Assembly (NCBI RefSeq): GCF_900115785.1
Contig: NZ_FOYS01000001.1
Location: 875,582-939,581, forward strand
DNA from: Halogeometricum limi
GTDB taxonomy: Archaea; Halobacteriota; Halobacteria; Halobacteriales; Haloferacaceae
DNA: 64,000 nucleotides
Direction: 5' to 3'
The translations under genes and the position numbers were made by a program. This document shows, piece by piece, positions 1-58,259 of the stretch (position 1 is its first letter; every line of letters starts with the position of its first letter). Below the pieces are notes generated by a model that worked only from the letters and a program-made list of their open reading frames with translations, did no database searches and had not been told where the DNA came from.

Positions 1-28
1 CGTCGCGCACGGCCTCTCCGCGGACGCG

Positions 29-3021: not shown

Positions 3022-3075
3022 ACCCGTCGACGGCGACGGCGAGGGTTTATATACTGAACCGCGGCCAGACGGCCC

Positions 3076-3555
3076 ATGCTCGACTTACCGCTGGACTCGT
3101 GGTACGCGTGGTTGGGGCTCTCGCTCGCGGGCGTCGCCCTCGTCGGCGCCGCCTCCGGCCTCCCGACCCTCCCGCCGCCGAACGCCGACGCGGCGGCCGC
3201 CACCGTCGACCGCGTGGCCGCGACGGAGTTCGAATCGACGGCGGAACATCCGCTGGACGCGACTGCGGTCCGCATCGGAACGCGTCGCCTCGCGGTCAGG
3301 AACGACGCCGGAACCGCGCACGCGACGTTCGCCTTCGGCCCGGTCACGCCCGTCCCGGCGAACGACTCGCGTCTCCGCGACGTGATTCACGGCGCGCATC
3401 CCTCGTCTGTCTTCGACTCGCCGACGGCGTTCCAGCAGGCCGTCGTCGACGCGCGGGCCCGCGGGAGCGACGCCCCGTGGCGCGAGGTGGACCGCACGCT
3501 TCTCGTTCGCCGCACGACTTGGGAGGGAGTCGATGTCGTCCTCGTGGACGCGTGA
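3076..3555 (+). CDS. Hypothetical membrane-anchored protein of the pilus-like operon
   Basis: 159 aa with an N-terminal hydrophobic segment (WLGLSLAGVALVGAASG). It overlaps the next gene by 23 nt, indicating a tight operon. Confidence 0.5.
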   Translation: MLDLPLDSWYAWLGLSLAGVALVGAASGLPTLPPPNADAAAATVDRVAATEFESTAEHPLDATAVRIGTRRLAVRNDAGTAHATFAFGPVTPVPANDSRLRDVIHGAHPSSVFDSPTAFQQAVVDARARGSDAPWREVDRTLLVRRTTWEGVDVVLVDA

Positions 3556-3979
3556 GTCGCGCGTCTCGGGTCCGCCCCGACACCGCGGACAGGCGTCGCC
3601 CGTCGCGGCGCTCGTCGCCCTGTTCGCCGTCTGCGCGGGATTGAGTCTCTACGCGACGGTTCTCGGCGGGTCGATTCCCGTCGTCGCGGAGCAGACTGTC
3701 GCCGCGCCGACGCTGGACCGCGCCGTCGACGACGTGAGCGACGGCGGCGTCGTCTCACTCGACCGGCTGGCATCCGCGGACGCGGGACGCTACGCTCCCG
3801 ACGGGCGCTCGGTCAACGTCTCGCTCACCTTCGACACCGCGAGCGGTCACGACTACGACTGGGCCGTCGGTCCGCGTGCCCCCGCACGGGCGACCGACCG
3901 CGCGAGTCGACCCGTGAGCGTCCGTCTCGGACCGGGCCGCGTCGACGCCGGCCGTCTCGCGGTGGTGGTGTGGTCGTGA
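3533..3979 (+). CDS. Putative pilin-like protein with a class III (prepilin-type) signal peptide
   Basis: N-terminal ...PRHRG|QASPVAALVALFAVCAGL matches the archaeal prepilin peptidase motif (K/R)G followed by Q/A then a hydrophobic stretch. Operon context supports this. Confidence 0.5.
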   Translation: MSSSWTRESRVSGPPRHRGQASPVAALVALFAVCAGLSLYATVLGGSIPVVAEQTVAAPTLDRAVDDVSDGGVVSLDRLASADAGRYAPDGRSVNVSLTFDTASGHDYDWAVGPRAPARATDRASRPVSVRLGPGRVDAGRLAVVVWS

Positions 3980-4848
3980 ACGCGACCGTCGACGCCGCGG
4001 TGTTCTTCCTCCTCCTCGGTGCCGCCGTCGTCGGTCTCACCACCGCCGACGTGGGCGCGCAGACGGGCGTCGTCGACGACGGTCGGGCGGACGCCGTCGC
4101 CACCGTTCTCGCGACGAGTACGGCGACGGTGAACTACTCGCTCGCACCCGGCGCGCGCGCGGCGAACCAGCGCGGTGCCGCGTTCGAACGAACGGACGGC
4201 CCGGAGTTCGAGCGGACGGTGCACGGCTCTCTCGCCGGGCATCTCTCTCGTGTGACCCTCGGGACGGCGGCCTTCGACGACAGACCGGTCACGCACGCCC
4301 GCGACGGCTTGCGGAACGCGACTCGTCGGGCGCTCACCGCCGAACTCTCGACCGTCGGCCTCCGAATCGACGCCGTCTGGCGTCCCTACCCCGACGCTTC
4401 CGTCGAATCCCGCGTCTCCGTCGGTGAACGCCCCCCGGCGTCGGCCGCGACCGACGCCGCGACGGTGTCGATTCCGGTCGGCGTCGAACCCCTCTCACCG
4501 AACGAGACGGACGACTTCGAGACGCTCTCGGAGGCCGTCGCCGCGCGAACCGTCGAGGCGCTGGCGCCCGCCGGACGGATGCGAGTCGCCCTCCGCGACG
4601 ACGCGCCCGTCTCGACGCTCGCGGCGTACCGATACGACCGACTCGGCGAGGAACTCGGCGTCTCGGTGTCCGAGTCGGTCGAGGACGCGGACACGACGAC
4701 CGCGAACCGTCGCCTCGCGGCGGCGCTCTCCCCGCGGGTCGAATCCGACCTCAGAACGCAGTACGACTCGTCCGAGGACGCCGCGGCCGCCGTCTCGGTC
4801 GCCGAGGTCAGAATCGTCGTCCGGACGTGGGCGACGGAGGGTCGCTGA
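3970..4848 (+). CDS. Hypothetical membrane-anchored protein of the pilus-like operon
   Basis: GTG start overlapping the upstream stop. N-terminal hydrophobic segment AVFFLLLGAAVVGL. 292 aa. Confidence 0.5.
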   Translation: MVVNATVDAAVFFLLLGAAVVGLTTADVGAQTGVVDDGRADAVATVLATSTATVNYSLAPGARAANQRGAAFERTDGPEFERTVHGSLAGHLSRVTLGTAAFDDRPVTHARDGLRNATRRALTAELSTVGLRIDAVWRPYPDASVESRVSVGERPPASAATDAATVSIPVGVEPLSPNETDDFETLSEAVAARTVEALAPAGRMRVALRDDAPVSTLAAYRYDRLGEELGVSVSESVEDADTTTANRRLAAALSPRVESDLRTQYDSSEDAAAAVSVAEVRIVVRTWATEGR

Positions 4849-7800
4849 TGCGACTGGCAGACGACGACCGCGCGCGCGTCCCGTTCGCTCTCGTCGGCGT
4901 CCTCCTCCTCGTCGGCAGTTCGACGTTCGCCGCCTCTCTCGCCGCGCCCGACGTGGGAACCGTGGACCGGTCGACGGACGTGGCGATGGACCGCGTCGAC
5001 GCCGAGACGACCGCCGCACTCCGCGTGGCCGTCCGCGAAGCGGCCCGCGCGGCCGCGAGAGACCCGGTGACGACGGCCGGAAACACGTCCGCCGGTCGCG
5101 CACTCGGGACGAACCGGACGTTCGAGAACTACCTCCGACTCCGGGTCGCGGTGTCGGCCAGAGACGCGCTCTCGTCGGTCGAGCACCGGCGGAGTACGAC
5201 GACGGCGAACGCGTCGCTCGCACCGCTCTCCGCCGTCGGTGCCGCCGGTGCGATGCGGAACGTCTCGCTGTCTGCCGTCGACGGCGGACGCTCGCTCTCC
5301 GTCACCGTCCGCAACGTCTCGCTCGTCGCCTCCAGAGACGGACGCGTGGTCGCAGAGCGGACCGTCTCGCGCCGCGTCACCGTCGCGGTGCCGGTGCTCG
5401 CACTCCACGCGCGGACGACCGACTACCAGCGACGGCTGAACCGGTCGCCGGTGTACGCTCCCGGACTGGCCCGCCGGACGACGGCCGGCCTCCTCGCGGT
5501 CACCGAAGCGCGGGCACTGGCCCAACACGCGAACGCACCTATCGAGAACGTCCTCGGGAACCGCCACGTCGCACTGTCGACGAACGCGGGCGTCCTCGCC
5601 GCACAGCGCGCTTCCTTCGGCCGAGCGGACCCGGACGCGGCCCGCGGCGTCCGCGCGGCGACGCTCCGAACCGGCGCGGAGGACCTCTTCTCCGCGTCCG
5701 GCGCTAGCGGCCCGGCGACAGAGCGACTCCTCGCGGCGGCACCGACGGCGAACCCGTCGCCGCCGCCCGAGACGATGCCGACGAAGACGCTCACCGTCGG
5801 CGTGAACGAGACGGCCGACGACGCGTTTCTCGCCCTCCTGCGCGAACACCGCGACTCGCCCTCGCTGCGGAGTCTCTTCCGCATCGCGTACACGCCGAAC
5901 GTCACCGTCGCCGCCGACGTGACCGACTCCGCGACGGGGCGCAAACCTGCGCCCGACGCGCCCGGTCCCTCGTGGTCGCTCGTCCGCGAACGCGCCGACC
6001 GCGAGGTGTCCGCGGAAGCGACTTCGGGGGTCGAAAGTTCGCCCGCCGTCGCCGAGGGGTCGCGCGTCTTGGAGACGGCGACGCGACGGGTCGTCGTCGA
6101 ACACACCGTCACGCGGACGTGGCGCGGGGCCAACCGGTCGCAGCGAACGACGACGGCGACGTGGACGGACCGCCACCGCGTCCGCGTCGACGTGGTCGGG
6201 TCGCTTCGCTCGCTCCCCGGGCCGAGTCGCTCCGTGACGCCGTTGTTCGAGCGAGGTGGTGCGCTCTCGGGGCCGAACTTGGCGGGAGTCGACCGCCGCG
6301 CGAGCGACGAACTCGCCGCTCGCGGCGGTGCGGACGCCGTCGCTCGGCGCGCGGTCGAGGGGCGCGTGGACGGACGGCCCGAACGACGCCTCGGCGAGCG
6401 TCCGGACGGACTCTATCCGTGGGTGTACGAGGACGTGAAGACGCTCCGCGAGGAGGTTCGAAACCTCTCCGTCGAGGTGACGGCACGGGACACCGCCACC
6501 GGAAACGCCAACGCCGCGGCGGCACTCGCGGCCGTCGTCCGCGACCGGCGGCGCGACCTGATCGACGCACCCGCGAGGTACGACGGCGTCTCGGACCGCG
6601 TGCGCGTCGCCGCCCGGTCGGCGTACCTCGACGCGGTCCTCGCCCGTCTCGACGAACGCGCCGGGGAGACCGCGGGTCAGAACCGCAGACTCGAAACTGC
6701 GCTGGACTCCCGTGGGGTGAACGCGACGGCGACCAGAGAGCGACTTTCGACACCGCTCGTCCGGGCGGAGACCGGGCGGCGAAACGCGAGCGACGACGCC
6801 GGCTTCGTCCCCGACGGCGACCCGGCGTATCTCTCGCTGTCAAGCGTCGACGGTCGGGCCGTGGACGGCGTCAGCGACGACGCCTCTTACACGCCGCTCG
6901 CGGCGCGAAACACGAACCTGTTCACCCTCCCGTACGGTGACCTCGCTGACTCCGTCGTCGACGGCGTCCTCGGTTCGGGAGGCGTCCCGCTCAGGACCGC
7001 CGGCCGTGCACTCATGGCGGCGAACCGAACGCTCGCCGTCCGGAACGACTCGACGCTCCGCGACCGACGAGATGGTCTGACGCCGGCGGTCGCGAACTCG
7101 TTGCGAACGGTCGAACTGACGGCCGTCGACGTCGTCGAGTCGGAGGCGGGGCGCTCCGACACCGCCGCCGAGGCCGCCGTCGACGCCGGACTCGCCCGCT
7201 GGGACTCGCACGGAGAACGCGCCGTCGCGACGGCGAACGGGTCGCTCGCGGCCGCCGTCGCCGCCGAGGCGGCACCGAACGACGCGACGACGCACGACCG
7301 CCTGGAGACGACGCTCCGGGTCGAACTCCGCGAGGAGGCGGCCACCGACAGCGTTCGGGTCCCGAGAGCGGCCGTGAACGAGACGGCGAGTCGAACGCGG
7401 ACGCTCGCGACCGAACTCGCCGACGAGGCGGCGTCGCGCGGGGCCGACCGGGTCACCGGTCGCGTGTTGAACGGGACGCTCGGGTCGGTCCCCGCGGGTC
7501 TCCCCTTGTCGCCGACGCTGAACCCCTGGGTAGCGACGACGAACCTCTGGGTCGTCGAAGCGCACGGCGCGTACGCCCGATTCGCCGTCTCGACCGGTGA
7601 CGACGCGGTGCCGACGACGTACGTTCGCGACGGGTCCGTCGTCAGACTCGACGTGGACGGCGACGGCGAACGCGAACTCGTCGGGTCGAACGAGCGAGTC
7701 GGATTCGAGTTGCGAACCGTCGTCGTCGCCGTCGTCCCGCCGGGCGGAAACGGCGTCGGCGACGTGGACGGCGACGCCATCGAGACGTCGTCCGCGTGGT

Positions 7801-7859
7801 CGGGTCCCGCGCCGGGGCCGCGGTGCGACACGCCGACGGGGCGGTGTCCGGGCGAGTGA
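4848..7859 (+). CDS. Large (about 1000 aa) uncharacterised secreted or membrane-anchored protein of the pilus-like operon. The alternative start at 4827 is less likely than the TGATG-coupled start at 4848.
   Basis: Long ORF with a strong coding-frame signal and an N-terminal hydrophobic anchor (RVPFALVGVLLLVGSSTFAA). It is Ala/Arg/Asp-rich with no recognisable catalytic motif. Confidence 0.55.
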   Translation: MRLADDDRARVPFALVGVLLLVGSSTFAASLAAPDVGTVDRSTDVAMDRVDAETTAALRVAVREAARAAARDPVTTAGNTSAGRALGTNRTFENYLRLRVAVSARDALSSVEHRRSTTTANASLAPLSAVGAAGAMRNVSLSAVDGGRSLSVTVRNVSLVASRDGRVVAERTVSRRVTVAVPVLALHARTTDYQRRLNRSPVYAPGLARRTTAGLLAVTEARALAQHANAPIENVLGNRHVALSTNAGVLAAQRASFGRADPDAARGVRAATLRTGAEDLFSASGASGPATERLLAAAPTANPSPPPETMPTKTLTVGVNETADDAFLALLREHRDSPSLRSLFRIAYTPNVTVAADVTDSATGRKPAPDAPGPSWSLVRERADREVSAEATSGVESSPAVAEGSRVLETATRRVVVEHTVTRTWRGANRSQRTTTATWTDRHRVRVDVVGSLRSLPGPSRSVTPLFERGGALSGPNLAGVDRRASDELAARGGADAVARRAVEGRVDGRPERRLGERPDGLYPWVYEDVKTLREEVRNLSVEVTARDTATGNANAAAALAAVVRDRRRDLIDAPARYDGVSDRVRVAARSAYLDAVLARLDERAGETAGQNRRLETALDSRGVNATATRERLSTPLVRAETGRRNASDDAGFVPDGDPAYLSLSSVDGRAVDGVSDDASYTPLAARNTNLFTLPYGDLADSVVDGVLGSGGVPLRTAGRALMAANRTLAVRNDSTLRDRRDGLTPAVANSLRTVELTAVDVVESEAGRSDTAAEAAVDAGLARWDSHGERAVATANGSLAAAVAAEAAPNDATTHDRLETTLRVELREEAATDSVRVPRAAVNETASRTRTLATELADEAASRGADRVTGRVLNGTLGSVPAGLPLSPTLNPWVATTNLWVVEAHGAYARFAVSTGDDAVPTTYVRDGSVVRLDVDGDGERELVGSNERVGFELRTVVVAVVPPGGNGVGDVDGDAIETSSAWSGPAPGPRCDTPTGRCPGE

Positions 7860-7909
7860 CCGTCGACGAGACGAGAAACCGTTTTGGCCGCGGCGCGGTG
7901 AGTGGGGGT

Positions 7910-8341
7910 ATGCTCTACGACGCGGCCGACGACCCGGCGACGCTGTCGACGACCGAGTTGCGAACGGCGTACGAGACGCAGATTCGAACCGTCGTCGACG
8001 AGGTGGGCGTCCAGACGGCGGCGGCGGACGCCGGTGTGGACGAAGCCGTCGTCTCCACCGTCGCCGACGGCGACGCACCCGAGATGAACGTCGAGGACGC
8101 CGCCGCCCTCCTCGCACTCTCCGACGACTACCCCGACCGAGAGGCCATCGTCCTCGAACTCCGCGACCACCTGCTGATGGGGATGACCACCGGCGTCTTG
8201 GACGTCGACACCATCGCCTCGAACGTCGAGTTGGACCTCTCCGGGCAGGAGATTCAGCAGGTGCTCGAAGGCCGGTCACCGATGACGCTCGCGCAACTGG
8301 CGGCCATCCACCGCTACATCGCCGAGCGAAACGACCGATAG
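7910..8341 (+). CDS. Conserved acidic hypothetical protein
   Basis: 144-aa ORF in haloarchaeal acidic style (pI clearly low). The ATG lies 50 nt after the preceding stop. Confidence 0.5.
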   Translation: MLYDAADDPATLSTTELRTAYETQIRTVVDEVGVQTAAADAGVDEAVVSTVADGDAPEMNVEDAAALLALSDDYPDREAIVLELRDHLLMGMTTGVLDVDTIASNVELDLSGQEIQQVLEGRSPMTLAQLAAIHRYIAERNDR

Positions 8342-17251: not shown

Positions 17252-18034
17252 ATGTTGACCGGTGAGCGCAGCGTCTCGCAGACGGGCCTCGACGCGGTGG
17301 CCCTGAAGCCGAAAGAGTGCGACGTGCGGGCGGCCCTCGACACGCCGTTCGGCACCGTCGCCATCGACTACGAGGGCCGAGAACACCTCCCCGACGCCGA
17401 CGTCCTCCGCGAACTGAGCGAGGCGAAGGAGGTCCGTCTCACGACGCCCGTCCGCGCCGACGGCTTCGACCCGACGGGCGACGACGAGTTGTGGGAGTGG
17501 GTGCCCGAGGGCGTCCGTCGCGTCCTCGTCGCCGGCCACGCCGCCTACCTCACCGAGACCGAGCGTCGCCGCGCCGTCTCGCCGCGTCTCGCCGCCGCCA
17601 TCGAACGCGCGCCGGACGCGTGGGTCGGCACCGAGGGTATCGAACGCGTCGCCCTCGCCGTCGGCGGGACGCAGTACGAACTGCTCTCGCGTTCGACGGC
17701 GCGTGACCTCCGCGCCCTCCGGGCGACGGGGTACGACGGCGAGATAGCGATATACGCGCCGACGGTGCTCTCCGACGACGAGGACGAGATTCTGGACGGC
17801 GTCGGCGCGTACGCCGCCCGTCGGCGTCCCGTCGCCAAGGCGCTCCCCGAGGACGCCGCCACCGACGCCCGCGCGACGGGTCGCGCCCGCGAGGTGCTGG
17901 GGAAAGCCGTCCGCGACTACGCTCTCGTCGGCAGCGTCGCGGACGTGCGCGAACAGGTCGCGTCGCTGAAAGAGGCGGGCGCCGACGTGGTCGTCGGCTA
18001 CCCCGCTCGCGGCGTCGACGAGTTCGCGGAGTAG
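17252..18034 (+). CDS. Conserved hypothetical protein (possible TIM-barrel, LLM-like)
   Basis: 260-aa coding frame. The C-terminal SLKEAGADVVVGYPARG resembles the tail of LLM-class oxidoreductases. The assignment is weak. Confidence 0.45.
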   Translation: MLTGERSVSQTGLDAVALKPKECDVRAALDTPFGTVAIDYEGREHLPDADVLRELSEAKEVRLTTPVRADGFDPTGDDELWEWVPEGVRRVLVAGHAAYLTETERRRAVSPRLAAAIERAPDAWVGTEGIERVALAVGGTQYELLSRSTARDLRALRATGYDGEIAIYAPTVLSDDEDEILDGVGAYAARRRPVAKALPEDAATDARATGRAREVLGKAVRDYALVGSVADVREQVASLKEAGADVVVGYPARGVDEFAE

Positions 18035-18131
18035 CCGCTTCTCGTCCTGTTCGCCGCTCGCTCTCGCCGCTCTCACCTCTCCCCCTTTCCGCGGCACCGA
18101 CTGCTAAGTACCGCCCCGACGACCGACGGGT

Positions 18132-18911
18132 ATGCCGACACGCGACACACCTCACCTACACGAACACACGACGACGACGGCGAGAGACCGACTGGAAGAC
18201 GCGTCGGTCGCGCTCCTCCCGACCGGCGCGATAGAACAGCACGGCCCCGCGCTCCCCCTCGGAACGGACTACCTCGCCGCGCGCGCCGTCGCCGACGCCG
18301 TCGACCGACCCGACGTGGTGACGCTTCCGCCGGTTCCGGTCGGCGTCAGCGCGCACCACCGGCAGTTCCACGGGACGCTCTCCGTATCGCCGGAGACGTT
18401 CACGGCGTACGTCGAGGAGACGGTGGAGAGCCTCGCCGCCCACGGCGTCCGGAAGGTGGTGTTCGTCAACGGTCACGGCGGGAACGGCGACGCTCTGACC
18501 CGTACCGCCAGACGCCTCCGCGCGAAGGAAGTCGCTTTCGCCGTCCCGTGGAACTGGTGGTCGAACCTCGCGGAGACGACCGAGGACCTGTTCGGAATCG
18601 ACGGTATCGGACACGCCGACGAGGTGGAGTCGAGTCTGGTGTACGCCGTCGCCGCGGAACTGGTCCGAGAGGACGCGCTCGAACGAGCGGAGGACGAGGG
18701 TGCTGATTCGTGGGGCGTCGACGTGGCGGGCGCGTCGCTCCCGTACGACACCGCCGACTTCACCGACAGCGGTGCCGTGGGTCACCCGACGCGGGCGTCG
18801 AAGGAGGCCGGACAGCGCCTGTTCGCGGAGGCGACGGCGGACCTCGAAACGCTCGTCGACTGGCTCGCGGAGCGGTCGTTCGCGTCGCTCTTCCCGCCGG
18901 AGCACCGATGA
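18132..18911 (+). CDS. Creatininase-family amidohydrolase (ArfB-like)
   Basis: Motifs LPTGAIEQHGPALPLGTD and VNGHGGN are characteristic of the creatininase/ArfB family. Confidence 0.8.
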   Translation: MPTRDTPHLHEHTTTTARDRLEDASVALLPTGAIEQHGPALPLGTDYLAARAVADAVDRPDVVTLPPVPVGVSAHHRQFHGTLSVSPETFTAYVEETVESLAAHGVRKVVFVNGHGGNGDALTRTARRLRAKEVAFAVPWNWWSNLAETTEDLFGIDGIGHADEVESSLVYAVAAELVREDALERAEDEGADSWGVDVAGASLPYDTADFTDSGAVGHPTRASKEAGQRLFAEATADLETLVDWLAERSFASLFPPEHR

Positions 18912-20104
18912 CGGGGAAGCGCGACGGCGCGGGTGAGAGCGGCGAGACGGACGACTTCGCTCGGCCGTTCGAGATTCCCGACGGGGCGGGCACCCGAGTC
19001 GCCGTCGTCGGCGCGGGCGCGGTGGGTCTCACGGCCGCGTACGACCTCGCGACGGCGGACGCGTCGGTGACCGTGTACGAACGCGGCGACGTCGGTGCTG
19101 GCTCGTCGGGCCGCGCGGCGGGCATCCTCTACGACGCCTACGCCGAGGACGTCGACGCGCGGATGGCCGCGCGCGCACTCGCCCGATTTCGGGCGTTCGA
19201 CGGCGCGCGCGAGTTCTCGGTGACGTCTTGTCCGTACGTCTTCCTCGCGCACGAGTCCGACGACAGGACGGGCGAGGCAATCGCCGAGACGGCCGCACGG
19301 ATGCGCGTCCACGGCCGCGACGTGACGACGACGGACGGAAGCGGCCTCCGAGAGCGGTTCTGCGACTCGCTCCGAACCGACGACGTGGGCACGGCCGCCG
19401 TCGCCGCCGGGGCACTGTGGACCGACCCCGCCTCCTACGTCGACGCGTTGGCGGGACTCGCGCGCGACGCGGGCGCGGAGATACGCACCGGAGACGCAGT
19501 CGGCGTCCGGACTGACCCGCCGGGCGTCGTCCGCGACGAGGTGGTGACGGAACGCTACGACGCCGTCCTCGTCGCCGCGGGCGCGCACACGAAGCAGATT
19601 CTGGCCGGCGCGGGCGTCCCGATAGCGATGAAGCCGTATCGAGTGCAGGCGCTCGTCAGCGACCGACCGTACGACGGTCCTATCTGTTACGACGCCACGG
19701 AGGGCGCGTACTTCCGGCCGCACCCCGAGGGGTTGCTGGCGGGCGACGGCACCGAACCGGTGGAGGCCGACCCCGACGACTGGCGACGCGAGGGCGACGA
19801 GTGGTTCGTGGACGACGTGACGGACGTCCTCTCGCGGCGGGCGAACTACGACGCCGACGTGTCGCGTGCGTGGGCGGGCCTCTGTACGGCGACGCCGGAC
19901 AGAAATCCGCTCCTCGGACCGGTCGCAGACGGCGTCTACGCGGCGACGGGGTGGCACGGTCACGGCTTCATGTGGTCGCCCGCGTCGGGAGAAGCGGTCG
20001 CGGCCGCGATGCTCGGCGGTGACGTGAATCTGGACCCGTACGACCCCCGACGGTTCGACGGGTCCGAGGAGTTCGAGGTGGTCGAGGGGATGGCCGTCGA
20101 GTGA
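18908..20104 (+). CDS. FAD-dependent oxidoreductase (DAO family)
   Basis: Dinucleotide-binding motif VAVVGAGAVGLTAAYDL. ATGA-coupled to the creatininase-family gene. Confidence 0.75.
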   Translation: MTGKRDGAGESGETDDFARPFEIPDGAGTRVAVVGAGAVGLTAAYDLATADASVTVYERGDVGAGSSGRAAGILYDAYAEDVDARMAARALARFRAFDGAREFSVTSCPYVFLAHESDDRTGEAIAETAARMRVHGRDVTTTDGSGLRERFCDSLRTDDVGTAAVAAGALWTDPASYVDALAGLARDAGAEIRTGDAVGVRTDPPGVVRDEVVTERYDAVLVAAGAHTKQILAGAGVPIAMKPYRVQALVSDRPYDGPICYDATEGAYFRPHPEGLLAGDGTEPVEADPDDWRREGDEWFVDDVTDVLSRRANYDADVSRAWAGLCTATPDRNPLLGPVADGVYAATGWHGHGFMWSPASGEAVAAAMLGGDVNLDPYDPRRFDGSEEFEVVEGMAVE

Positions 20105-52185: not shown

Positions 52186-52842
52186 TCAGGGGTCGTAGCG
52201 AATGAGGCTCGCGGCGTCGTCCGCGAGAGCGACGGCGTCCGGGCCGAACGAGTCGGCGTAGCGCACGAGGAGGGTGATGACCGTCTCGGGTCGCGTGATG
52301 GCGTAGCCGTCTTCGCGCGAGAGGAGGCCCGCGTCGTCGAGTTCCCGCGCGTAGTTGCTCACCGTCGCCCGAGAGACGTCCAACTGCGCGGCGACGTCGG
52401 TGCCGGTGGCGTCGGGGTCACGGAGGAGGGCGACGAGCATCCCGCGCGGCGTCCCTCGACGGAGATAGCCCAGCGTCGTCTGCTCGAAGGAGGTGAACCG
52501 CTTCGCCGGGAAGAAGCGCTTGTAGTCGCCGTCGCGGCGGAACTCGACGACGCCGTCGTCGACGAGGCGGCGCAGGTGGTACTGCGTCTCGCCGGTTCCG
52601 AGTCGTAAGTCGTCGCGCACCTTCGAGAAATGTGCGCCCGGCGTCGAGGCGACGTAGCCGACGATGGCGTCTCGTGCGTCGCTTCCGGACGTCTCCTCCG
52701 CGTCGGCCTCGGACGACCCGAGTCCGACGAGGGGCGTCGCCGCCCCGAGGGCCGCGAATCGCCGGAGCGTCGCACGCTTCTCTTCGTCCACGCCTCGGTC
52801 GGTCATCTGTGCTCGTCCCGGAGTAGGCTCGTTCTGCGACAA
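52186..52842 (-). CDS. Winged-helix transcriptional regulator with an N-terminal Tat-like or disordered region
   Basis: RRFAALGAA motif and a C-terminal HTH (VSRATVSNYARELDDAGLL). Confidence 0.6.
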   Translation of the reverse strand: MSQNEPTPGRAQMTDRGVDEEKRATLRRFAALGAATPLVGLGSSEADAEETSGSDARDAIVGYVASTPGAHFSKVRDDLRLGTGETQYHLRRLVDDGVVEFRRDGDYKRFFPAKRFTSFEQTTLGYLRRGTPRGMLVALLRDPDATGTDVAAQLDVSRATVSNYARELDDAGLLSREDGYAITRPETVITLLVRYADSFGPDAVALADDAASLIRYDP

Positions 52843-52894
52843 AAGCTCTTCGCTCCGACGGACGCGGGCCGCGAACCGTCGGCTATCGTGAGCG

Positions 52895-54118
52895 TCACTC
52901 GACTTCTTTCTCTGTCTCGCGCTGACCGTTCGTCTCGCCGCCCGCCCCGGACTCCGTCTGTCCGTCGGATTCGGCGACGACTTCGTCCGGGCTCTTGATG
53001 TCGGATTTGTCCTGCGCGTCCGCCTCGGCGACGACTTCGTCCGGGCTCTTGATGTCGGGGTCTGCTCCCTCTTTGATGGCTTGTGCCTCCTGTTCGAGTT
53101 CTTCGACGTCCATCTCGGCGGCCTGGTCTATCTGGCCGAGAATCTCTTCGATGTCGTCCAGTCCGATGAGTTCGCGCGTCTCCGCGTCGAAGTCGAGGCT
53201 GTCGAGTCCGGCCTGTTCCTGCACGTCGGAGTTCGAGAGCTGCCGGCCGTACCGACCGAGGAGGCTCGTGAGTTCCTGCGGGAGGACGAACGTCGTCGAC
53301 TCGCCCTGTCCGATGTGTTCGAGCGTCTCCATCCCCTTCTCGATGATTGCGCGTTCGCCCATCGACTCGGCGGACTTCGCGCGGAGGACGGTGGAGATGG
53401 CGTCACCCTGCGCTTCGAGGATCTGACTCTGCTTTTCACCTTGCGCGCGGATGATGTTCGACTGTTTTTCACCTTCCGCCGTCTCGACCGCAGAGCGCCG
53501 CTCACCCTGCGCCTCCAGAATCATCGCACGGCGGCGACGTTCCGCGGACGTCTGCTGTTCCATCGCCTGCTGGACGTCCTGGGAGGGGTTCACTTCGCGG
53601 ACTTCGACGGACTCCACGCGGACACCCCACTCGTCGGTCGGTTCGTCCAGTTCCTTGCGGATTCGCGCGTTTATCTCCTGTCGCTTGTTCAGCGTGTCGT
53701 CCAGTTCCATGTCGCCGAGGACGGCCCGGAGCGTCGTCTGCGCGAGGTTCGAGACGGCCTTCTTGTAGTCGTCGACCTCCAAGAACGCCTTTCGCGCGTC
53801 CATCACCTTGATGTAGACGACGGCGTCGGCGGTCACCGGCGAGTTGTCGCGGGTGATGGCTTCCTGTCTCGGGACGTCCAACGTCTGCGTCCGCATGTCG
53901 AACGCGTACGTCCGCGAGACGAACGGCGGGATGAAGTTGATACCCGGTTCCAGTAGTTTGCGGTACTCACCGAAGACGGTGAGCGCCTTCTTCTCGTACG
54001 CGTCGACGATTTCGACCATCTGGTAGACGGTCACGACGGCGAGGAGGAGAACTAACAACCCGACGAGGTACGCGCCGAGCGTGAGTCCCACCTGTAACAG
54101 CACGGGGTCCAGTACCAT
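52895..54118 (-). CDS. SPFH/band-7 (stomatin/prohibitin-like) protein
   Basis: N-terminal TM helix, SPFH domain and coiled-coil AQGE repeats. The C-terminal tail contains an in-frame duplication. Confidence 0.85.
   Translation of the reverse strand: MVLDPVLLQVGLTLGAYLVGLLVLLLAVVTVYQMVEIVDAYEKKALTVFGEYRKLLEPGINFIPPFVSRTYAFDMRTQTLDVPRQEAITRDNSPVTADAVVYIKVMDARKAFLEVDDYKKAVSNLAQTTLRAVLGDMELDDTLNKRQEINARIRKELDEPTDEWGVRVESVEVREVNPSQDVQQAMEQQTSAERRRRAMILEAQGERRSAVETAEGEKQSNIIRAQGEKQSQILEAQGDAISTVLRAKSAESMGERAIIEKGMETLEHIGQGESTTFVLPQELTSLLGRYGRQLSNSDVQEQAGLDSLDFDAETRELIGLDDIEEILGQIDQAAEMDVEELEQEAQAIKEGADPDIKSPDEVVAEADAQDKSDIKSPDEVVAESDGQTESGAGGETNGQRETEKEVE
52971..53058 (-). repeat. 34-nt perfect tandem direct repeat (period 54 nt) within the SPFH gene tail, encoding DIKSPDEVVAE twice
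   Basis: TCGGCGACGACTTCGTCCGGGCTCTTGATGTCGG at 52971-53004 and again at 53025-53058. Confidence 0.8.
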
Positions 54119-54208
54119 GTCCTGAGCTTAGCGTGTTAGTTAAATAAGAGTTCGCCCGTGACAACCGCGGACGGCGCTCTCGACGCGTCTCGCCCGCCTC
54201 GGGTCCGG

Positions 54209-54844
54209 TCAGGCCCGTTCGCTTTCGGTCTCCGTCTCGGTCGCACCGCTCTCTGCGCCGTTGTCGCTCTCTCCCCCGTCGCCGTCGTCGCCGTCGCCGC
54301 GCTCACGACGCCCGCGAGCGAGTTCCCTGTCGATGTCGTCCAGCGCAGAGTCGACCGATTCGACGGTGACGACGTTGCCGCCGCCGGGGTCGACGACGAT
54401 GACTTCGCTCCCCTCGGCTATCTCGCCGCCGACGGACCGGGCCGCGTAGTAGGGGTTGAAGCCGCCGCCCTCGTCCAGTTTCACCTCACCCTGCGTCGGC
54501 GTGACGCGTTCCGTGACCCGTGCGCTCCGCCCGCGGAGGGCTTTCGAGTCGCTGGTCTGACCGGTACCCTTCCCGCCGTACAGGTCGAACTCGCGGTAGC
54601 CGTACAGCGCGAGTGCGCCGAACAGGAAGACGAGCACGCCGAGGACGAGGGGGCTGGCGAGTGGTCCGAGGACGAGTCCGACCAGTCCCGCGGCTAAGAG
54701 CGCGATACCGAGGACGATGAAGTGCGCACCCGGTGCCAACGCCTCCGCGACCGAGAGGCCGAGTCCCGAGACGACGAGGAGGTACGGAAGCATCTCGGGG
54801 GGCAGAGACAGTTGGAGGAACGCCGGTGGCGGCGACCTGAGCAT
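54209..54844 (-). CDS. NfeD-family membrane protein (stomatin operon partner)
   Basis: N-terminal TM helices plus a C-terminal OB-fold-like domain and an acidic tail. Located upstream of the SPFH gene. Confidence 0.75.
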   Translation of the reverse strand: MLRSPPPAFLQLSLPPEMLPYLLVVSGLGLSVAEALAPGAHFIVLGIALLAAGLVGLVLGPLASPLVLGVLVFLFGALALYGYREFDLYGGKGTGQTSDSKALRGRSARVTERVTPTQGEVKLDEGGGFNPYYAARSVGGEIAEGSEVIVVDPGGGNVVTVESVDSALDDIDRELARGRRERGDGDDGDGGESDNGAESGATETETESERA

Positions 54845-54891: not shown

Positions 54892-56073
54892 TCACGTCTC
54901 GGGTTCGGTCGCTTCCGGGACGATTCCCTCGTCGCGGACGAACCGAACCGTCAGTTCGTCGTCGCGGACGACGAGCGTCCCACTCGTCGCGTCTTCCGGG
55001 ACGCTGAACGCCACCCACACCTCACGCGGGTCGTTCGGGGCGAACAGTCCGGCCTGCGCGAATCCCGTCGTCCCGTTCAGGGGTTGGTGTCCGTACCGGT
55101 CACCGGCGACTTCCAGCGCCAGCGAGTCCTGGTCGAGCGACAGGTGCGAGGAGTCCTCGTTGCTCACGTTCATCCTGACGAGGACGAACGTCTCGTTCGC
55201 CGGCGCGGCGTACGTCGTCCCGTTCACCGTCAGCGTGTCCGTCGCCCGCGCGTTCCAGCGGACTTCGGCCGTCGCGTTCGCCCCGGCAGTCGAGAGCGCC
55301 GAGACGGACACGTCGCCGGAACCGCCCGACGCCGCACCGATGGCCGGCAGCCCGAGCGCGGGTCCGACGGCCGACCCGACCAGGAACACCACGAGGACGA
55401 GAAGCGCCACCGGCAGGACGACGTCCGGTCTCGGGAGACTCGTCAGCGGTCCCGGGAGCGTCGGTCCGTCTCCCTTTCCGTCCGCGTTCGACGTCTCCGC
55501 GCTCGCCGACCGACCGCCGTCGCCTCCCTCGCCGCCGACGGCACCCCCACCGTCGCCTCCCTCGCCCGACTCGCTCCCGCCGACCGGCAGTCGGTCGAGG
55601 AGCGCCTGAAAGTCGAACGGGAGCGCTTCGGGGACGGGCACGCCGTACGACCGAAGCGTCGCGAGCAACCGGTCGAGCGGACTGCCGCCGCCGGTGTACT
55701 CGCGGAGGACGTGTTCGAAGCCGCCCTCGTCGACCGTCTTCGCCAGCGTCTCGCGGTCCAAGAGGTGGATTCCCTTCGACTTCGCTATCTTCCGCACCGG
55801 GTCGGCGTACGCGCCCTGCGTCGCGACGACGCCCACGTCGATGCCCTTCTTGCGGCAGAACCCGACGAACTTCTTCAGGTGTTGCTTTTTCACGTGCGAG
55901 TCGACCGTCGGGAAGACGTACAGCGCACCGCGCTTGCCGTCGCCGCGTTTGCCGACGATGAAGTACGTCTCGTCGGGTCGCTGTTTCACGGACGTCTCCC
56001 ACCCGCGTTCGTTCCAGAGGTCTTCGAGGAACGAGACGAACGACTCGGGTTCGAGTTCGGGCAGTTTCTCCAT
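54892..56073 (-). CDS. Fusion protein: an N-terminal Mrr-type restriction-endonuclease-fold domain, a single TM helix, and an extracellular domain with N-glycosylation sequons
   Basis: FLEDLWNERGW...IVGKRGDGKRGALYV...KKGIDVGVVATQG...IHLLDRE resembles Mrr_cat. TM segment VVLPVALLVLVVFLV. Sequons NATA, NGTT, NETF, NVSN, NGTT. Confidence 0.6.
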   Translation of the reverse strand: MEKLPELEPESFVSFLEDLWNERGWETSVKQRPDETYFIVGKRGDGKRGALYVFPTVDSHVKKQHLKKFVGFCRKKGIDVGVVATQGAYADPVRKIAKSKGIHLLDRETLAKTVDEGGFEHVLREYTGGGSPLDRLLATLRSYGVPVPEALPFDFQALLDRLPVGGSESGEGGDGGGAVGGEGGDGGRSASAETSNADGKGDGPTLPGPLTSLPRPDVVLPVALLVLVVFLVGSAVGPALGLPAIGAASGGSGDVSVSALSTAGANATAEVRWNARATDTLTVNGTTYAAPANETFVLVRMNVSNEDSSHLSLDQDSLALEVAGDRYGHQPLNGTTGFAQAGLFAPNDPREVWVAFSVPEDATSGTLVVRDDELTVRFVRDEGIVPEATEPET

Positions 56074-56107
56074 CAGTGCGTCACCTCTCTCGGGTCGGTG
56101 TGGTCTC

Positions 56108-57901
56108 TCACGTGTCTCCCCCCTGTCTGCGAGCGACGAGTCCCGCGGCCGCGAGTATCGCGACGACCGCGACGGCGGGCGACAGCGAGACGCCCGTGCT
56201 CGTCGCGTCGGACGGGTCTAGCGGCGTCTCCGAGCGAACGGGGTACGGCGTCGTCGTCGCCGTCGGCGTGGCGGTGGGCGTCGCCGTCGCCGTGGGTGTC
56301 GGCGTCGGCGTCGCCGTCTCCGTCGGCGGCGCGCCGAACGAGACGCGCGCCGTGTCGTTGACGACCCACCCCGAGCGCTCGTAGGCGGTGTCGTTCCGCG
56401 AGTACGCCTCGTCACCGTCGTCGGTAACCAGTTCCGCGCGCAACGTCTGCTCGTCGTACAACGGAAGCGACAACTCCGCGCTCACGTTTCGGTGTCTCCC
56501 CGGCGCGAGGTAGTCGGACCGTCCCACGCCGTCGCCGTTTGCGTCGTGGATGCGGACGAACCCGCCTTCGGGAACCTCGACGCGAGAGAGCGTCACCGTC
56601 GCGCCGTCGGGCGACTGGTCGTCGAACCGGACGCTCGCGTTCGGCGCGACGAGGGTCACCTGCTGTGCGGTCTGCAAGAAGAACTCGTCGCCCGAGTTGA
56701 CGTCGTCGGTCCACAGCGTCGCGTTCACGCCGCGCGTCACGTCGCCCACGTCGAACGTCGTTCGGTACCGTCGCTGACTGTCCACCGTCGCCTCGCTGAT
56801 GAGGAGGAACGCGTTCGGTTTCGGCGACCGGAGGCGGACTTCGAGCGTCGTGTTCGGCGCGTACGTCGTCGTTCCCTCGACGGCGAACGACTCGTTCTCC
56901 CACGGGTAGTGGACGGAGTCGTTCGACGGCGACAGGGTCGCCACGGGGTCGACGAGGGTGAACGACCGTGTCGCCGCCGTCGTCTCCGACTCGACGAGGC
57001 CGTTCTCCTCGGTGAGGGTCAGGCGCATCTCGTACTCGTTCCGGGCGGCCTGTTTCCGAACGTCGAGGGCCGACGTGTCCAGTACGAAGTAAATCGTATC
57101 CGCCTCGAACGACGGGTAGACGGAGACGTTCGCCTCCGGGTCCGCCGTCGCCACGTACTCGTCGGGCTGGCGGTTCGGACCGGGCGCGGTCTGTGAGACG
57201 TTCAGTTTGATGCCGTTCGCGGCGGCGTCGCCCGCCAGTCGGTCGGGTTCGAGCGCCGTTTCGAGACCCGTCTCGTGAACTTTCATCACGACGTAGTCGC
57301 CGCGGGCGACGGTGGTTCCCGGCGACATCGTCCCGACGAGTTCGCCCGTGTCGGCGTTCCCGTCCGCGTCGGTGTTCGTCGACGCGCCGAACGACCCGGG
57401 CGTGACGAACGACTCCGCGCTCATCTCGCCGCGCGGTTCGACGGTGAGCGTCGACAGGTCGCGTTCGTCGCCCTCGACGGTGACGTTCATCAGGTAGTCC
57501 GCGGGCTCTATCGGCGCGTCCGGTGCGGGCGACAGGAGCGTCGCGTCGCCCCCGTCGACGTACTCGTCGGGGTCCGCGGCCGTCGTCGCGTACGTGTCGA
57601 TGACTATCTCGTCGGTTCCGCTCCCGCCGAGCGCGATGCGGAGGTGGTAGCCGTAGTCGGGGCCGCCGATAGTGACGTTCGCCGGACCGGAGTGGCTCAC
57701 GGTGAAACGCACCTCGTCGCCTCGGGTGACGTTCACGTTGTCGCTTCCGAACGAGCCGCTCGCTTCCGTCTGGAGGGTGCGTGCGGACTCGTAGCCGCTG
57801 GGTGCCCCGTGCTCGTTGGCGAGGGCGAGCGCGGGGGTGGGGCCGGCGGCGACGAGCAGTAACACCGCGGCCAGCACCGTGAGGGTGTGTGTCGATTGCA
57901 T
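56108..57901 (-). CDS. Secreted cell-surface glycoprotein with a Thr/Pro-rich linker and a C-terminal TM anchor (PGF-CTERM-like but lacking PGF)
   Basis: Signal peptide LTVLAAVLLLVAAG. Many N-x-S/T sequons. TPTPTPTATATPTATPTATTT linker followed by a C-terminal hydrophobic segment plus RRQ. Confidence 0.75.
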   Translation of the reverse strand: MQSTHTLTVLAAVLLLVAAGPTPALALANEHGAPSGYESARTLQTEASGSFGSDNVNVTRGDEVRFTVSHSGPANVTIGGPDYGYHLRIALGGSGTDEIVIDTYATTAADPDEYVDGGDATLLSPAPDAPIEPADYLMNVTVEGDERDLSTLTVEPRGEMSAESFVTPGSFGASTNTDADGNADTGELVGTMSPGTTVARGDYVVMKVHETGLETALEPDRLAGDAAANGIKLNVSQTAPGPNRQPDEYVATADPEANVSVYPSFEADTIYFVLDTSALDVRKQAARNEYEMRLTLTEENGLVESETTAATRSFTLVDPVATLSPSNDSVHYPWENESFAVEGTTTYAPNTTLEVRLRSPKPNAFLLISEATVDSQRRYRTTFDVGDVTRGVNATLWTDDVNSGDEFFLQTAQQVTLVAPNASVRFDDQSPDGATVTLSRVEVPEGGFVRIHDANGDGVGRSDYLAPGRHRNVSAELSLPLYDEQTLRAELVTDDGDEAYSRNDTAYERSGWVVNDTARVSFGAPPTETATPTPTPTATATPTATPTATTTPYPVRSETPLDPSDATSTGVSLSPAVAVVAILAAAGLVARRQGGDT

Positions 57902-58031
57902 CGGGGAGACGGCAGTTACTGCTCACTAACCGGTATCCCACATAAAACACTGCGGTCGAGTATTCAGAACTGATAATCTCGTCCGCGAGAACGCCCGATT
58001 TCGCGGGGGAGACGGAGTGTGCGGCGGTGAC

Positions 58032-58259
58032 TCACAGCGCGGTGACGAACAGGAGGACGGTGCCGACGGCACCGATGACGACGAACAGCGCGTTCTCGGC
58101 CGTCGGTCGACCGGGTTCGAGCGGTTCGAGCGTCCGCGGGTCCTCGAAGACGTCGTCCGTCTCCTCCTCCTCGTCCGCGTCGGCGGACGTGGGTGTCGTC
58201 TCCGGCGCAACAGTCGGGTCCGCTTCGGTGTCGTCGACGCCGTCGTCGCGTCTATCCAT
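58032..58259 (-). CDS. Small acidic protein with a C-terminal TM helix
   Basis: 75-aa ORF with a hydrophobic C-terminus LFVVIGAVGTVLLFVTAL. Confidence 0.4.
   Translation of the reverse strand: MDRRDDGVDDTEADPTVAPETTPTSADADEEEETDDVFEDPRTLEPLEPGRPTAENALFVVIGAVGTVLLFVTAL

What the first reader, a model, noticed from the sequence alone, without database searches (positions are those of the whole stretch)
54892..57901. Mrr-type nuclease-fold domain fused to a TM helix and a glycosylated extracellular domain, in tandem with a Thr/Pro-linker surface glycoprotein
The N-terminal 130 aa look like the catalytic (PD-(D/E)xK) domain of Mrr-like restriction enzymes, yet the protein continues through a Gly/Ser linker and one TM helix into an extracellular domain with five N-glycosylation sequons. 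A cytoplasmic nuclease-fold module tethered to the membrane with an external sensor-like domain is an unusual architecture. It could be a membrane-anchored DNA- or virus-defence sensor or effector, or an anchor for the co-oriented surface glycoprotein encoded 35 nt upstream. That glycoprotein ends in a PGF-CTERM-like TM anchor but lacks the PGF tripeptide.
Basis: partly seen in the sequence, partly recalled or inferred. Interest (0 to 1): 0.6.

Follow-up and report, generated by a model that had tools for sequence, protein, structure and literature searches.

The report
Dead-nuclease membrane protein with surface glycoprotein
A salt-loving archaeon encodes a membrane protein whose restriction-enzyme-like inner domain has lost every catalytic residue; its gene almost always sits directly after that of an S-layer-like surface glycoprotein, so the two form a conserved cell-envelope pair of unknown role, not the "restriction endonuclease" of the databases.

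Summary
The described architecture is real. Gene A (54892-56073, minus strand, 393 aa) has four parts:
- an Mrr_cat / PD-(D/E)xK-fold domain in the cytoplasm
- a disordered acidic Gly-rich tether
- one transmembrane helix
- an N-glycosylated DUF4352-type beta-sandwich outside the cell

Gene B (56108-57901, 597 aa) lies 34 nt upstream. It is a Sec-secreted, multi-beta-sandwich, DUF7282/BGTF surface glycoprotein with a Thr/Pro stalk and a degenerate PGF-CTERM-like anchor.

The nuclease reading fails. All five residues that are invariant in the closest canonical Mrr_cat relatives are replaced or deleted in all 26 family members examined. Even so, this domain is the best-conserved part of A.

B directly precedes A in 24 of 25 distinct loci, in Haloferacaceae and in Halobacterium/Halodesulfurarchaeum. 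These loci fall into two unrelated genomic contexts. In two loci the genes overlap by 4 nt.

Part of the B family matches the Halobacterium-type S-layer glycoprotein.

I found no sign of a virus, plasmid or defence-island setting.

Best reading: a vertically inherited two-gene envelope module. A would be a membrane-spanning adaptor with a non-catalytic cytoplasmic binding domain. The function is inferred, not shown.

The parts
54892..56073 (-). Gene A: single-pass membrane protein, N terminus inside and C terminus outside, 393 aa. Annotated 'restriction endonuclease' in Halogeometricum limi.
   Evidence: ORF. 100% identical database protein P0001. Domain hits. AF2 model.
55693..56073 (-). A residues 1-127: cytoplasmic Mrr_cat / PD-(D/E)xK-fold domain that has lost its catalytic residues.
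55432..55692 (-). A residues 128-214: short helical extension with a semi-conserved G-[VL]-P-x-P motif, then a disordered acidic Gly-rich tether.
   Evidence: pLDDT below 50 for residues 162-219. Mean pairwise identity 0.27-0.36 and variable length.
55366..55428 (-). A residues 216-236: the single transmembrane helix.
   Evidence: AF2 helix 216-235. Hydropathy peak at 218-236. One TM helix in each of 28 family members. Lys+Arg 54 on the N side and 2 on the C side.
54919..55317 (-). A residues 253-385: extracellular DUF4352-type beta-sandwich with five N-glycosylation sequons.
56074..56107 (-). The 34-nt B-A spacer, with a Shine-Dalgarno-like GAGAGGTGA (56081-56089) ending 7 nt before A's ATG. 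Too short to hold a separate promoter.
   Evidence: Sequence. The same two genes overlap by 4 nt in Halobellus limi (L001) and in L031. Reading the motif as a Shine-Dalgarno site is inference.
56108..57901 (-). Gene B: secreted, heavily N-glycosylated, multi-beta-sandwich surface glycoprotein (DUF7282 plus BGTF domain). A distant relative of the Halobacterium-type S-layer glycoprotein.
   Evidence: AF2 model of about five beta-sandwich domains, pLDDT 80, with only generic multi-Ig matches. Of 28 family members, 10 hit NF041335 (best E 2.5e-23, far below the model's cutoff) and 28 hit BGTF.
56126..56257 (-). B residues 549-592: conserved membrane-proximal motif (Y-P-V-x-[ST]-x-T-P-L-x-P ... [LV]-[PS]-L-S-P), then a TM helix and an ARR tail. 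A degenerate PGF-CTERM.
   Evidence: C-termini of 55 homologues. PGF_CTERM 15.9 bits, below the 24.5 cutoff. The B-like partner in the distant locus L025 keeps a true PGFG-CTERM.
57926..57980 (-). Conserved promoter-like block upstream of B: ATTATCAGTTCTGA, 6 nt, GACCGCAGTGTTTTATG, about 10 nt, GGTTAG. It ends 24 nt before B's ATG.
   Evidence: Found with at most 3 mismatches in 17 loci of four genera plus the window. Sequence. Promoter function is inferred from the TTTATG TATA-like element and its position.

Best explanation
A and B form a vertically inherited two-gene operon that encodes a haloarchaeal cell-envelope module.

B is exported by Sec and N-glycosylated. It stands on a Thr/Pro stalk above its own C-terminal anchor, which is a degenerate PGF-CTERM. 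It is a paralogue-like relative of S-layer glycoproteins.

A spans the membrane once, N terminus inside. Its glycosylated DUF4352 beta-sandwich sits at the membrane surface. There it most likely contacts B, or B's conserved membrane-proximal segment.

Inside the cell, a flexible acidic tether of 50-100 residues carries an Mrr-type nuclease fold that can no longer cut DNA. That domain is kept under strong selection as a non-catalytic binding or oligomerisation module. Hydrophobic and aromatic residues now fill the former active-site positions. A would thus act as a transmembrane adaptor that couples a surface glycoprotein to a cytoplasmic partner. It is not a restriction enzyme.

Shown here:
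- the domain anatomy and topology
- the loss of the catalytic residues
- the conserved gene pairing

Inferred:
- co-transcription
- physical A-B contact
- the binding role of the dead domain
For: Fold and family of the N-domain.

Loss of catalysis: all five residues invariant in canonical relatives are lost in 26 of 26 family members.

Selection: the N-domain is the most conserved part of A (0.67 mean identity, against 0.27 for the tether).

Topology: N terminus inside, C terminus outside.

Gene pairing: B lies immediately upstream of A in 24 of 25 distinct loci, in two unrelated contexts.
- PK - DUF7312 - B - A - NfeD - Band7 in Haloferacaceae.
- B - A - L15e in three loci: Halobacterium and Halodesulfurarchaeum (Rio2 lies upstream of B in Halobacterium only), plus an unassigned metagenome contig where two small ORFs separate A from L15e.
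-. A very distant subgroup shows the pairing by hhalign at 99.4%.

Coupling of the two genes: 4-nt overlaps; a 34-nt spacer with a Shine-Dalgarno-like motif; a conserved promoter block only upstream of B.

The exception: in Halobellus rarus, B moved next to an IS element, and both genes are still kept.

B as an S-layer relative.

No mobile or defence setting: no phage or IMG/VR relatives, only one weak partial plasmid match (21% identity, 35% coverage), and no significant PADLOC hit.

Against: - No direct evidence of A-B contact. Multimer modelling was not available.
- B has its own membrane anchor, so it does not need A for attachment.
- No ligand for the dead domain is identified.
- The basic pI of the N-domain in H. 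limi (8.6) is not shared by relatives (4.0-6.8), so charge gives no support for DNA binding.
- Much of the synteny evidence comes from related genera, where adjacency may be inherited. The argument rests on the two distinct contexts and the distant subgroup.
- No expression data or literature on any orthologue was found.
Confidence: 0.5

Rival explanations
1. A is a transmembrane signalling receptor. The ectodomain, alone or with B as co-receptor, senses an envelope or environmental cue. The cytoplasmic dead-nuclease domain then binds DNA or a regulator after clustering, or after proteolytic release from the membrane, and changes gene expression.
For: - Architecture: an extracellular beta-sandwich, one TM helix, and a conserved cytoplasmic domain of a DNA-binding fold class.
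- Non-catalytic REase folds act as sensors elsewhere: the YqgP N-terminal domain (PMC7231995) and inactive REase domains described in conflict-system gene neighbourhoods (PMC10853773).
- The long flexible tether would suit signalling by release or clustering.
Against: - A disordered tether cannot pass on a conformational signal.
- No protease, kinase or transcription-factor gene is consistently linked to the pair; neighbours differ between contexts.
- The N-domain is acidic in most relatives.
- No conserved basic surface is evident across the wider family.
Confidence: 0.17
2. A is an antiviral or anti-DNA device at the membrane, comparable to mycobacterial Mpr (nuclease region + TM + DUF4352). 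The ectodomain and B would meet the virus. The cytoplasmic REase-fold domain would bind, or with migrated catalytic residues cut, incoming DNA.
For: - Mpr combines a nuclease region, a TM helix and DUF4352 in phage defence (PMC12596739).
- Haloarchaeal relatives with an intact active site and the same Mrr_cat-TM-DUF4352 layout exist. One of them sits beside an integrase gene (P0132).
- There is a weak ZorD Mrr-like hit (E 0.015).
Against: - The catalytic residues are gone in every family member, and no alternative conserved set of acidic residues plus Lys exists.
- The locus is syntenic, single and chromosomal, between housekeeping genes.
- GC content there (0.68) lies within the window's typical 0.64-0.70 range.
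- No viral relatives and only one weak partial plasmid match.
- No significant PADLOC match.
Confidence: 0.12
3. There is no specific A-B partnership. The adjacency is inherited gene order. A is a stand-alone DUF4352 envelope protein, and its N-domain is a decaying remnant of a former membrane-tethered restriction enzyme.
For: - Most sampled loci belong to one family, Haloferacaceae, where order is conserved for more than 10 kb around the pair.
- In H. rarus YC21, A sits without B next to it.
Against: - The pair persists while all flanking genes change, and also in a very distant subgroup.
- Overlapping stop and start codons.
- The N-domain is the most conserved region, not a decaying one.
- H. 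rarus keeps B elsewhere on the same contig.
Confidence: 0.1

Closest known systems
Mrr-type (type IV) restriction endonuclease catalytic domain, Pfam Mrr_cat PF04471; closest solved structure AF1548 (PDB 1y88)
   Same: - Significant HMM match above the gathering score.
- The same alpha-beta-beta-beta-alpha-beta core in the model.
- The nearest sequence relatives are haloarchaeal Mrr_cat proteins that share the F-x-x-F-x-A-x-L-W-x-x-R-G-W-x-T motif.
   Different: - All catalytic and metal-binding residues are lost.
- Pfam found no Mrr N-terminal DNA-binding domain.
- The domain is tethered to the membrane and followed by an extracellular domain.
- The gene is paired with a surface glycoprotein gene, not placed in a restriction or defence setting.
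Haloarchaeal Mrr_cat-TM-DUF4352 proteins with an intact active site (for example P0132 and P0134 from metagenomes)
   Same: The same three-part architecture and a clearly homologous N-domain.
   Different: - They keep D...QxK.
- P0132 lies next to a phage-type integrase gene with no B-like gene visible on its 3-kb contig, so it looks mobile or defence-like.
- The family studied here would be an inactivated, domesticated offshoot. That direction of evolution is inference.
Mpr, multicopy phage resistance protein of Mycobacterium smegmatis (PMC12596739)
   Same: A small single-pass membrane protein with an N-terminal nuclease-associated region, one TM helix and a C-terminal DUF4352 domain. DUF4352 is reported to drive oligomerisation.
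   Different: - It is bacterial.
- Its N-terminal region is reported as an active exonuclease with no similarity to known nucleases.
- It has a defence role.
- It has no glycoprotein partner.
- Here the nuclease fold is Mrr-type and catalytically dead.
Non-catalytic restriction-endonuclease-fold domains: the YqgP rhomboid N-terminal cytosolic domain (PDB 6r0j; PMC7231995), the RPB5 N-terminal domain, and inactive REase ('iREase') domains of conflict systems (PMC10853773)
   Same: An REase fold kept without nuclease chemistry and used as a sensing or binding module. In YqgP it is likewise the cytosolic N-terminal domain of a membrane protein.
   Different: - There is no detectable sequence relationship.
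- YqgP still uses acidic residues to bind Mn2+, whereas the acidic residues are lost here.
- The partner proteins and membrane parts differ.
ArtA-dependent, PGF-CTERM haloarchaeal S-layer glycoproteins (NF041335 Halobacterium type; TIGR04216 HVO_2072 type). This comparison is for gene B.
   Same: - Signal peptide, many sequons, beta-sandwich domains, BGTF domain, Thr-rich stalk, and a C-terminal TM helix with a basic tail.
- 10 of 28 family members hit NF041335 at up to E 2.5e-23.
- A distant B-like partner has a true PGFG-CTERM.
   Different: - Scores lie far below the equivalog cutoffs: at most about 100 bits in the hits whose scores were shown, against 1100.
- B is about 600 aa, not about 830-860.
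- The PGF tripeptide is replaced by [PS]-[LF]-S-P in the main group.
- The H. limi protein itself hits only the C-terminal tail.

Membership tests
Pfam Mrr_cat (PF04471) | HMM score above the gathering threshold | tested here: met
   37 bits against a cutoff of 21, E 4e-9, residues 6-112.
Pfam Mrr_cat (PF04471) | PD-(D/E)xK restriction-endonuclease fold | tested here: met
Functional Mrr-type / type IV restriction endonuclease | Catalytic D ... (E/Q)xK motif plus the helix-1 Glu | tested here: not met
   In 26 of 26 family members the catalytic D is L/F/V/M, Q is Y/L/W, K is deleted and the helix-1 E is V/A/P/G. All 11 canonical relatives keep these residues.
Functional Mrr-type / type IV restriction endonuclease | N-terminal DNA-recognition domain (Mrr_N winged helix) | tested here: not met
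   No Pfam hit other than Mrr_cat and DUF4352. The nuclease-fold domain starts at residue 6.
Functional Mrr-type / type IV restriction endonuclease | DNA cleavage activity | not testable with these tools
   This needs a biochemical assay in high salt.
Pfam DUF4352 (PF11611) | HMM score above the gathering threshold | tested here: inconclusive
   22.2 bits against a cutoff of 25.9 for the H. limi protein. The family is recorded for several homologues. Fold matches DUF4352-type structures YjhA (3cfu), YcdA and YxkC.
PGF-CTERM / archaeosortase A substrate (gene B) | PGF tripeptide before the C-terminal TM helix, and an HMM score above cutoff | tested here: not met
   15.9 bits against 24.5, covering model positions 10-28 only. 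SLSP or PLSP stands in place of PGF in the main group. A true PGFG is seen only in the distant L025 partner.
PGF-CTERM / archaeosortase A substrate (gene B) | ArtA-dependent C-terminal cleavage and lipid attachment | not testable with these tools
   This needs mass spectrometry or an artA mutant. ArtA lies directly after A in one lineage only (L005; TIGR04125, 346 bits) and is absent from the window and the other loci.
Pfam DUF7282 / NCBIfam BGTF surface domain (gene B) | HMM scores | tested here: met
   DUF7282 scores 74.5 bits against a cutoff of 27. BGTF scores 37.8 against 40 in H. limi, slightly below cutoff, but all 28 family members match it.
Halobacterium-type S-layer glycoprotein (NF041335 equivalog) | Equivalog cutoff of 1100 bits | tested here: not met
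   Best hits are E 2.5e-23 and about 100 bits in the L025 partner, and only 10 of 28 members match. B is a distant relative, not the S-layer protein itself.
Known anti-phage defence systems (PADLOC-DB) | Significant match to a defence protein model, and a defence-island or mobile context | tested here: not met
   Only ZorD at E 0.015 and 11 bits. No phage or IMG/VR relatives and one weak partial plasmid match. The chromosomal context is conserved.

The most novel reading that the evidence does not exclude
The pair is a so far unrecognised transmembrane coupling device of haloarchaea. An S-layer-like surface glycoprotein (B) would be linked through A to the cell interior, where a domesticated, catalytically dead restriction-nuclease domain on a long tether captures DNA or a specific cytoplasmic partner. 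This could tether or sense DNA at the envelope during virus entry, DNA uptake or cell-cell mating. Alternatively it could report the state of the surface layer to the cytoplasm.
Probability: 0.12. Interest if true: 0.75.

Novelty: new variant of a known kind. Interest (0 to 1): 0.42.

Why it matters
- **Annotation.** The family is labelled "restriction endonuclease" or "homolog to restriction system mrr" across Halobacteria, including the model organism Halobacterium salinarum (VNG0178H). That label is almost certainly wrong, and it inflates counts of restriction and defence genes.
- **Domain reuse.** The family is a clear case of a nuclease fold being recruited for a non-catalytic job in a membrane protein. 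Active relatives with the same architecture still exist for comparison.
- **Envelope biology.** The strict pairing with an S-layer-like glycoprotein defines a small, experimentally tractable envelope module. Beyond the main S-layer protein and ArtA, archaeal surface organisation is poorly understood, and this module sits in organisms that have genetic tools.

Tried and rejected
- **PDB sequence searches.** A alone gave only low-complexity linker hits. The B profile gave nothing.
- **PADLOC.** No significant hit.
- **Mobile-element searches with A.** tblastn against phages found nothing. Against plasmids it found one weak, unrelated Haloquadratum hit. The IMG/VR scan found nothing.
- **afdb50 fold search.** The library was unavailable.
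- **Literature.** No paper mentions DUF7282. Searching VNG0178H and its neighbours returned only a paper on rpl15e, VNG_0177G.
- **DNA binding inferred from charge.** The N-domain pI is 8.6 in H. limi but 4.0-6.8 in most relatives, so I dropped this idea.
- **Migrated active-site residues.** No other conserved set of acidic residues plus Lys exists. Only D79, the residue-91 D/E and D106 are conserved as acidic. D79 and D106 are also conserved in the active relatives, in addition to the classical catalytic residues.
- **DUF7312, NfeD, SPFH and the HTH gene as parts of the module.** Rejected, because they are absent from the Halobacterium-type context.
- **Archaeosortase linkage.** ArtA follows A in one metagenomic lineage only, so I treat it as a lead, not a feature.
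- **B fold search.** Only generic multi-Ig matches such as macroglobulins and adhesins, which say nothing about function.
Full report
**1. Source and observation**

The window is chromosomal DNA of Halogeometricum limi: both proteins are 100% identical to database entries from that species. GC content around the locus is 0.68, within the window's usual 0.64-0.70 range.

On the minus strand, the ORF at 54892-56073 (A, 393 aa) follows the ORF at 56108-57901 (B, 597 aa) after a 34-nt spacer. The long plus-strand ORFs over the same DNA are the usual high-GC shadows. Only the minus-strand products have homologues and domain hits.

**2. Anatomy of A**

- **Tether.** Residues 162-219 are disordered, rich in Gly, Asp, Glu and Ser, and poorly conserved (0.27 mean identity).
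- **Membrane helix.** There is one hydrophobic helix, at 216-236.
- **Ectodomain.** Residues 253-385 form a beta-sandwich (pLDDT about 93). It scores just below the DUF4352 cutoff. It matches the DUF4352-type structures YcdA, YjhA, YxkC, Lmo1068 and MPT63.
- **Sequons.** The five predicted sequons are present. N266, T286 (the third position of the N284 sequon) and N302 are invariant.
- **Topology.** In 28 family members the 15-residue flanks of the helix hold 54 Lys+Arg on the N side and 2 on the C side. Sequons are almost all on the C side.

**3. The nuclease domain is dead**

A profile search of 1.84 billion representative proteins found 27 clusters with E below 1e-30. Most of the complete ones show the full architecture. 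Beyond them lie ordinary Mrr_cat proteins and separate DUF4352 proteins.

I aligned 26 family N-domains with the 11 nearest canonical relatives. Those relatives are haloarchaeal-looking Mrr_cat proteins, several of which also carry TM segments. The flanks of the alignment are unambiguous (the LW-x-x-RGW-x-T motif and the region around VQQY).

The canonical proteins all keep the helix-1 Glu, D-x-G-[IV]-D and Q-x-K. In the family these positions read as follows:

| Canonical residue | In the family |
|---|---|
| helix-1 E | V/A/P/G |
| first D | D/G/E/P/N (variable) |
| catalytic D | L/F/V/M |
| Q | Y/L/W |
| K | deleted |

No substitute set of acidic residues plus Lys is conserved. Yet this domain is the best-conserved part of the protein (0.67 mean pairwise identity). 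So it is selected for something other than catalysis.

**4. Anatomy of B**

- **N terminus.** A hydrophobic leader with no twin arginine, read by eye as a Sec-type signal peptide.
- **Glycosylation.** B has 13 sequons.
- **Fold.** The model shows about five beta-sandwich domains (pLDDT 80). Structure matches are only generic multi-Ig proteins.
- **Domains.** DUF7282 (E 1e-20) and the BGTF haloarchaeal surface domain.
- **Stalk and anchor.** A Thr/Pro stalk is followed by a strongly conserved membrane-proximal motif (TPYPV-x-T-x-TPL-x-P ... [LV]-P-L-S-P), a TM helix and ARR.
- **PGF-CTERM.** The model is matched only over its helix and tail part and below cutoff. The B-like partner of a distant A subgroup ends in a genuine PGFG-CTERM. 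The anchor in the main group therefore looks like a degenerate descendant of PGF-CTERM.
- **S-layer relationship.** Ten of 28 family members match the Halobacterium-type ArtA-dependent S-layer glycoprotein model, at up to E 2.5e-23 but far below its equivalog cutoff. B is an S-layer-glycoprotein-like paralogue, not the S-layer protein.

**5. The pair is the conserved unit**

Among 25 distinct loci, B lies directly upstream of A in 24.

- **Haloferacaceae** (Halogeometricum, Halopelagius, Halobellus, Haloquadratum, two Haloferax-labelled genomes, and metagenomes). The context is pyruvate kinase - DUF7312 - B - A - (NfeD) - SPFH - HTH.
- **Halobacterium, Halodesulfurarchaeum and an unassigned metagenome contig.** The context is entirely different: B - A - ribosomal protein L15e, with Rio2 upstream of B in Halobacterium only, and two small ORFs between A and L15e on the metagenome contig.
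- **A very distant subgroup.** The upstream gene is still a B homologue (hhalign 99.4%).

Several features point to one transcript, though this is inference:

- Stop and start codons overlap by 4 nt in Halobellus limi and in L031.
- In H. limi the 34-nt spacer carries GAGAGGTGA ending 7 nt before the ATG.
- A conserved promoter-like block (ATTATCA..TCTGA-N6-GACCGCAGTGTTTTATG-N-GGTAG) lies only upstream of B, in 17 loci plus the window.

The one exception is Halobellus rarus YC21. There the promoter block and the first B codons remain in front of A. A full B copy lies about 140 kb away on the same contig, beside a DDE transposase. So both genes are retained.

**6. What it is not**

- No significant PADLOC hit.
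- No relatives in phage genomes or IMG/VR, and only one weak partial plasmid match.
- No variable-island context.

By contrast, a relative with the same architecture and an intact active site (P0132) sits beside an integrase gene, with no B-like gene on its short contig. The simplest history is that a mobile, membrane-tethered Mrr-type nuclease was domesticated and inactivated. That history is inference.

**7. Most likely mechanism**

A and B form an envelope module. B is displayed on its stalk above its own anchor. A's glycosylated beta-sandwich sits at the membrane surface, where it could contact B's conserved juxtamembrane segment. A's cytoplasmic dead-nuclease domain swings on an acidic tether of 50-100 residues and serves as a binding or oligomerisation module. 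Aromatic and hydrophobic residues now occupy the former active-site positions.

There are precedents for such reuse:

- The RPB5 N-terminal domain.
- Inactive REase domains occur in conflict-system gene neighbourhoods (PMC10853773).
- Mycobacterial Mpr shows that a nuclease region + TM + DUF4352 layout can work in phage defence, with DUF4352 driving oligomerisation (PMC12596739).

My confidence is as follows:

| Claim | Confidence |
|---|---|
| A is not a nuclease | about 0.9 |
| A and B are functionally linked | about 0.8 |
| the adaptor mechanism as stated | about 0.5 |

The rivals are a signalling receptor (0.17), a non-catalytic antiviral DNA sensor or Mpr-like device (0.12), and no real partnership (0.10).

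**8. Novelty and verdict**

The proteins are already in databases, but under a misleading name. No paper in the searchable library deals with DUF7282 or VNG0178H. The individual ingredients are known kinds: inactive REase folds, single-pass DUF4352 proteins, and PGF-CTERM-like glycoproteins. The strict B-A pairing and the family-wide inactivation appear to be undescribed. I rate it a new variant of a known kind, of moderate interest.

Noticed in passing
window 57926-57980 (minus strand); also L001, L003, L007, L009-L017, L019-L021 about 60-120 nt upstream of B: A strongly conserved upstream block, [GA]TTATCA..TCTGA-N6-GACCG[CT]AG.G.TTTATG-N12-GGTAG, is shared by Halogeometricum, Halopelagius, Halobellus and Haloquadratum. 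It looks like a TATA-box promoter plus a possible regulator site.
   Followed up: partly
L005 9427-10377 (metagenome ERZ508515) and L006: In one distant lineage, archaeosortase A (TIGR04125, 346 bits) is encoded directly after the B-A pair. There B ends in APLSP + TM + RRL. ArtA is not in the window or in the other loci.
   Followed up: partly
L010 7680-8001 and L030 3710-6782 (Halobellus rarus YC21, contig JANHDI010000008.1): B is deleted from its usual place, leaving the promoter and the first codons in front of A. A full-length copy sits about 140 kb away next to a DDE transposase.
   Followed up: yes
L003 6024-7903 (Halopelagius fulvigenes): B is split into a 548-aa ORF and a 78-aa ORF. 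The short ORF encodes the Thr/Pro stalk and anchor. This is a frameshift or a sequencing error.
   Followed up: partly
L028 509-1633 and 2254-2850 (P0132): A relative with the same Mrr_cat-TM-DUF4352 layout and intact D...QxK residues lies next to a phage-integrase-family gene. Other near relatives (P0122, P0127, P0138) appear by eye to join an active Mrr_cat domain to several TM helices. Membrane-tethered Mrr nucleases may form a class in haloarchaea.
   Followed up: partly
L025 56-1318: The B-like partner of a distant A subgroup has a canonical PGFG-CTERM and matches the Halobacterium S-layer glycoprotein model at E 1e-28. The ORF may be truncated at its 5' end.
   Followed up: partly
window 52186-54844 (minus strand): Downstream of A lie an NfeD-like membrane protein (my reading of the sequence; no family match was found), an SPFH/Band-7 protein and an HTH_HVO_0163-type regulator. 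The order is conserved in Haloferacaceae, although in several Halobellus loci one to four extra genes separate A from them. They are absent from the Halobacterium-type context.
   Followed up: partly
window 58032-58259 (minus strand): A small acidic protein of 75 aa with a C-terminal hydrophobic helix. Its homologues in related loci carry Pfam DUF7312. It always lies between pyruvate kinase and B in Haloferacaceae and is missing in Halobacterium-type loci.
   Followed up: partly
Haloquadratum walsbyi plasmid NC_008213.1 39355-39771: A's N-domain has a weak match (21% identity, E 3e-4) to a protein annotated 'CFI-box-CTERM domain-containing protein'. This may be another Mrr-like domain joined to a C-terminal sorting signal.
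   Followed up: no
window 1-8000: GC content is 0.73-0.74 here, against 0.64-0.70 in most of the rest of the window (0.715 at 18001-20000).
   Followed up: no
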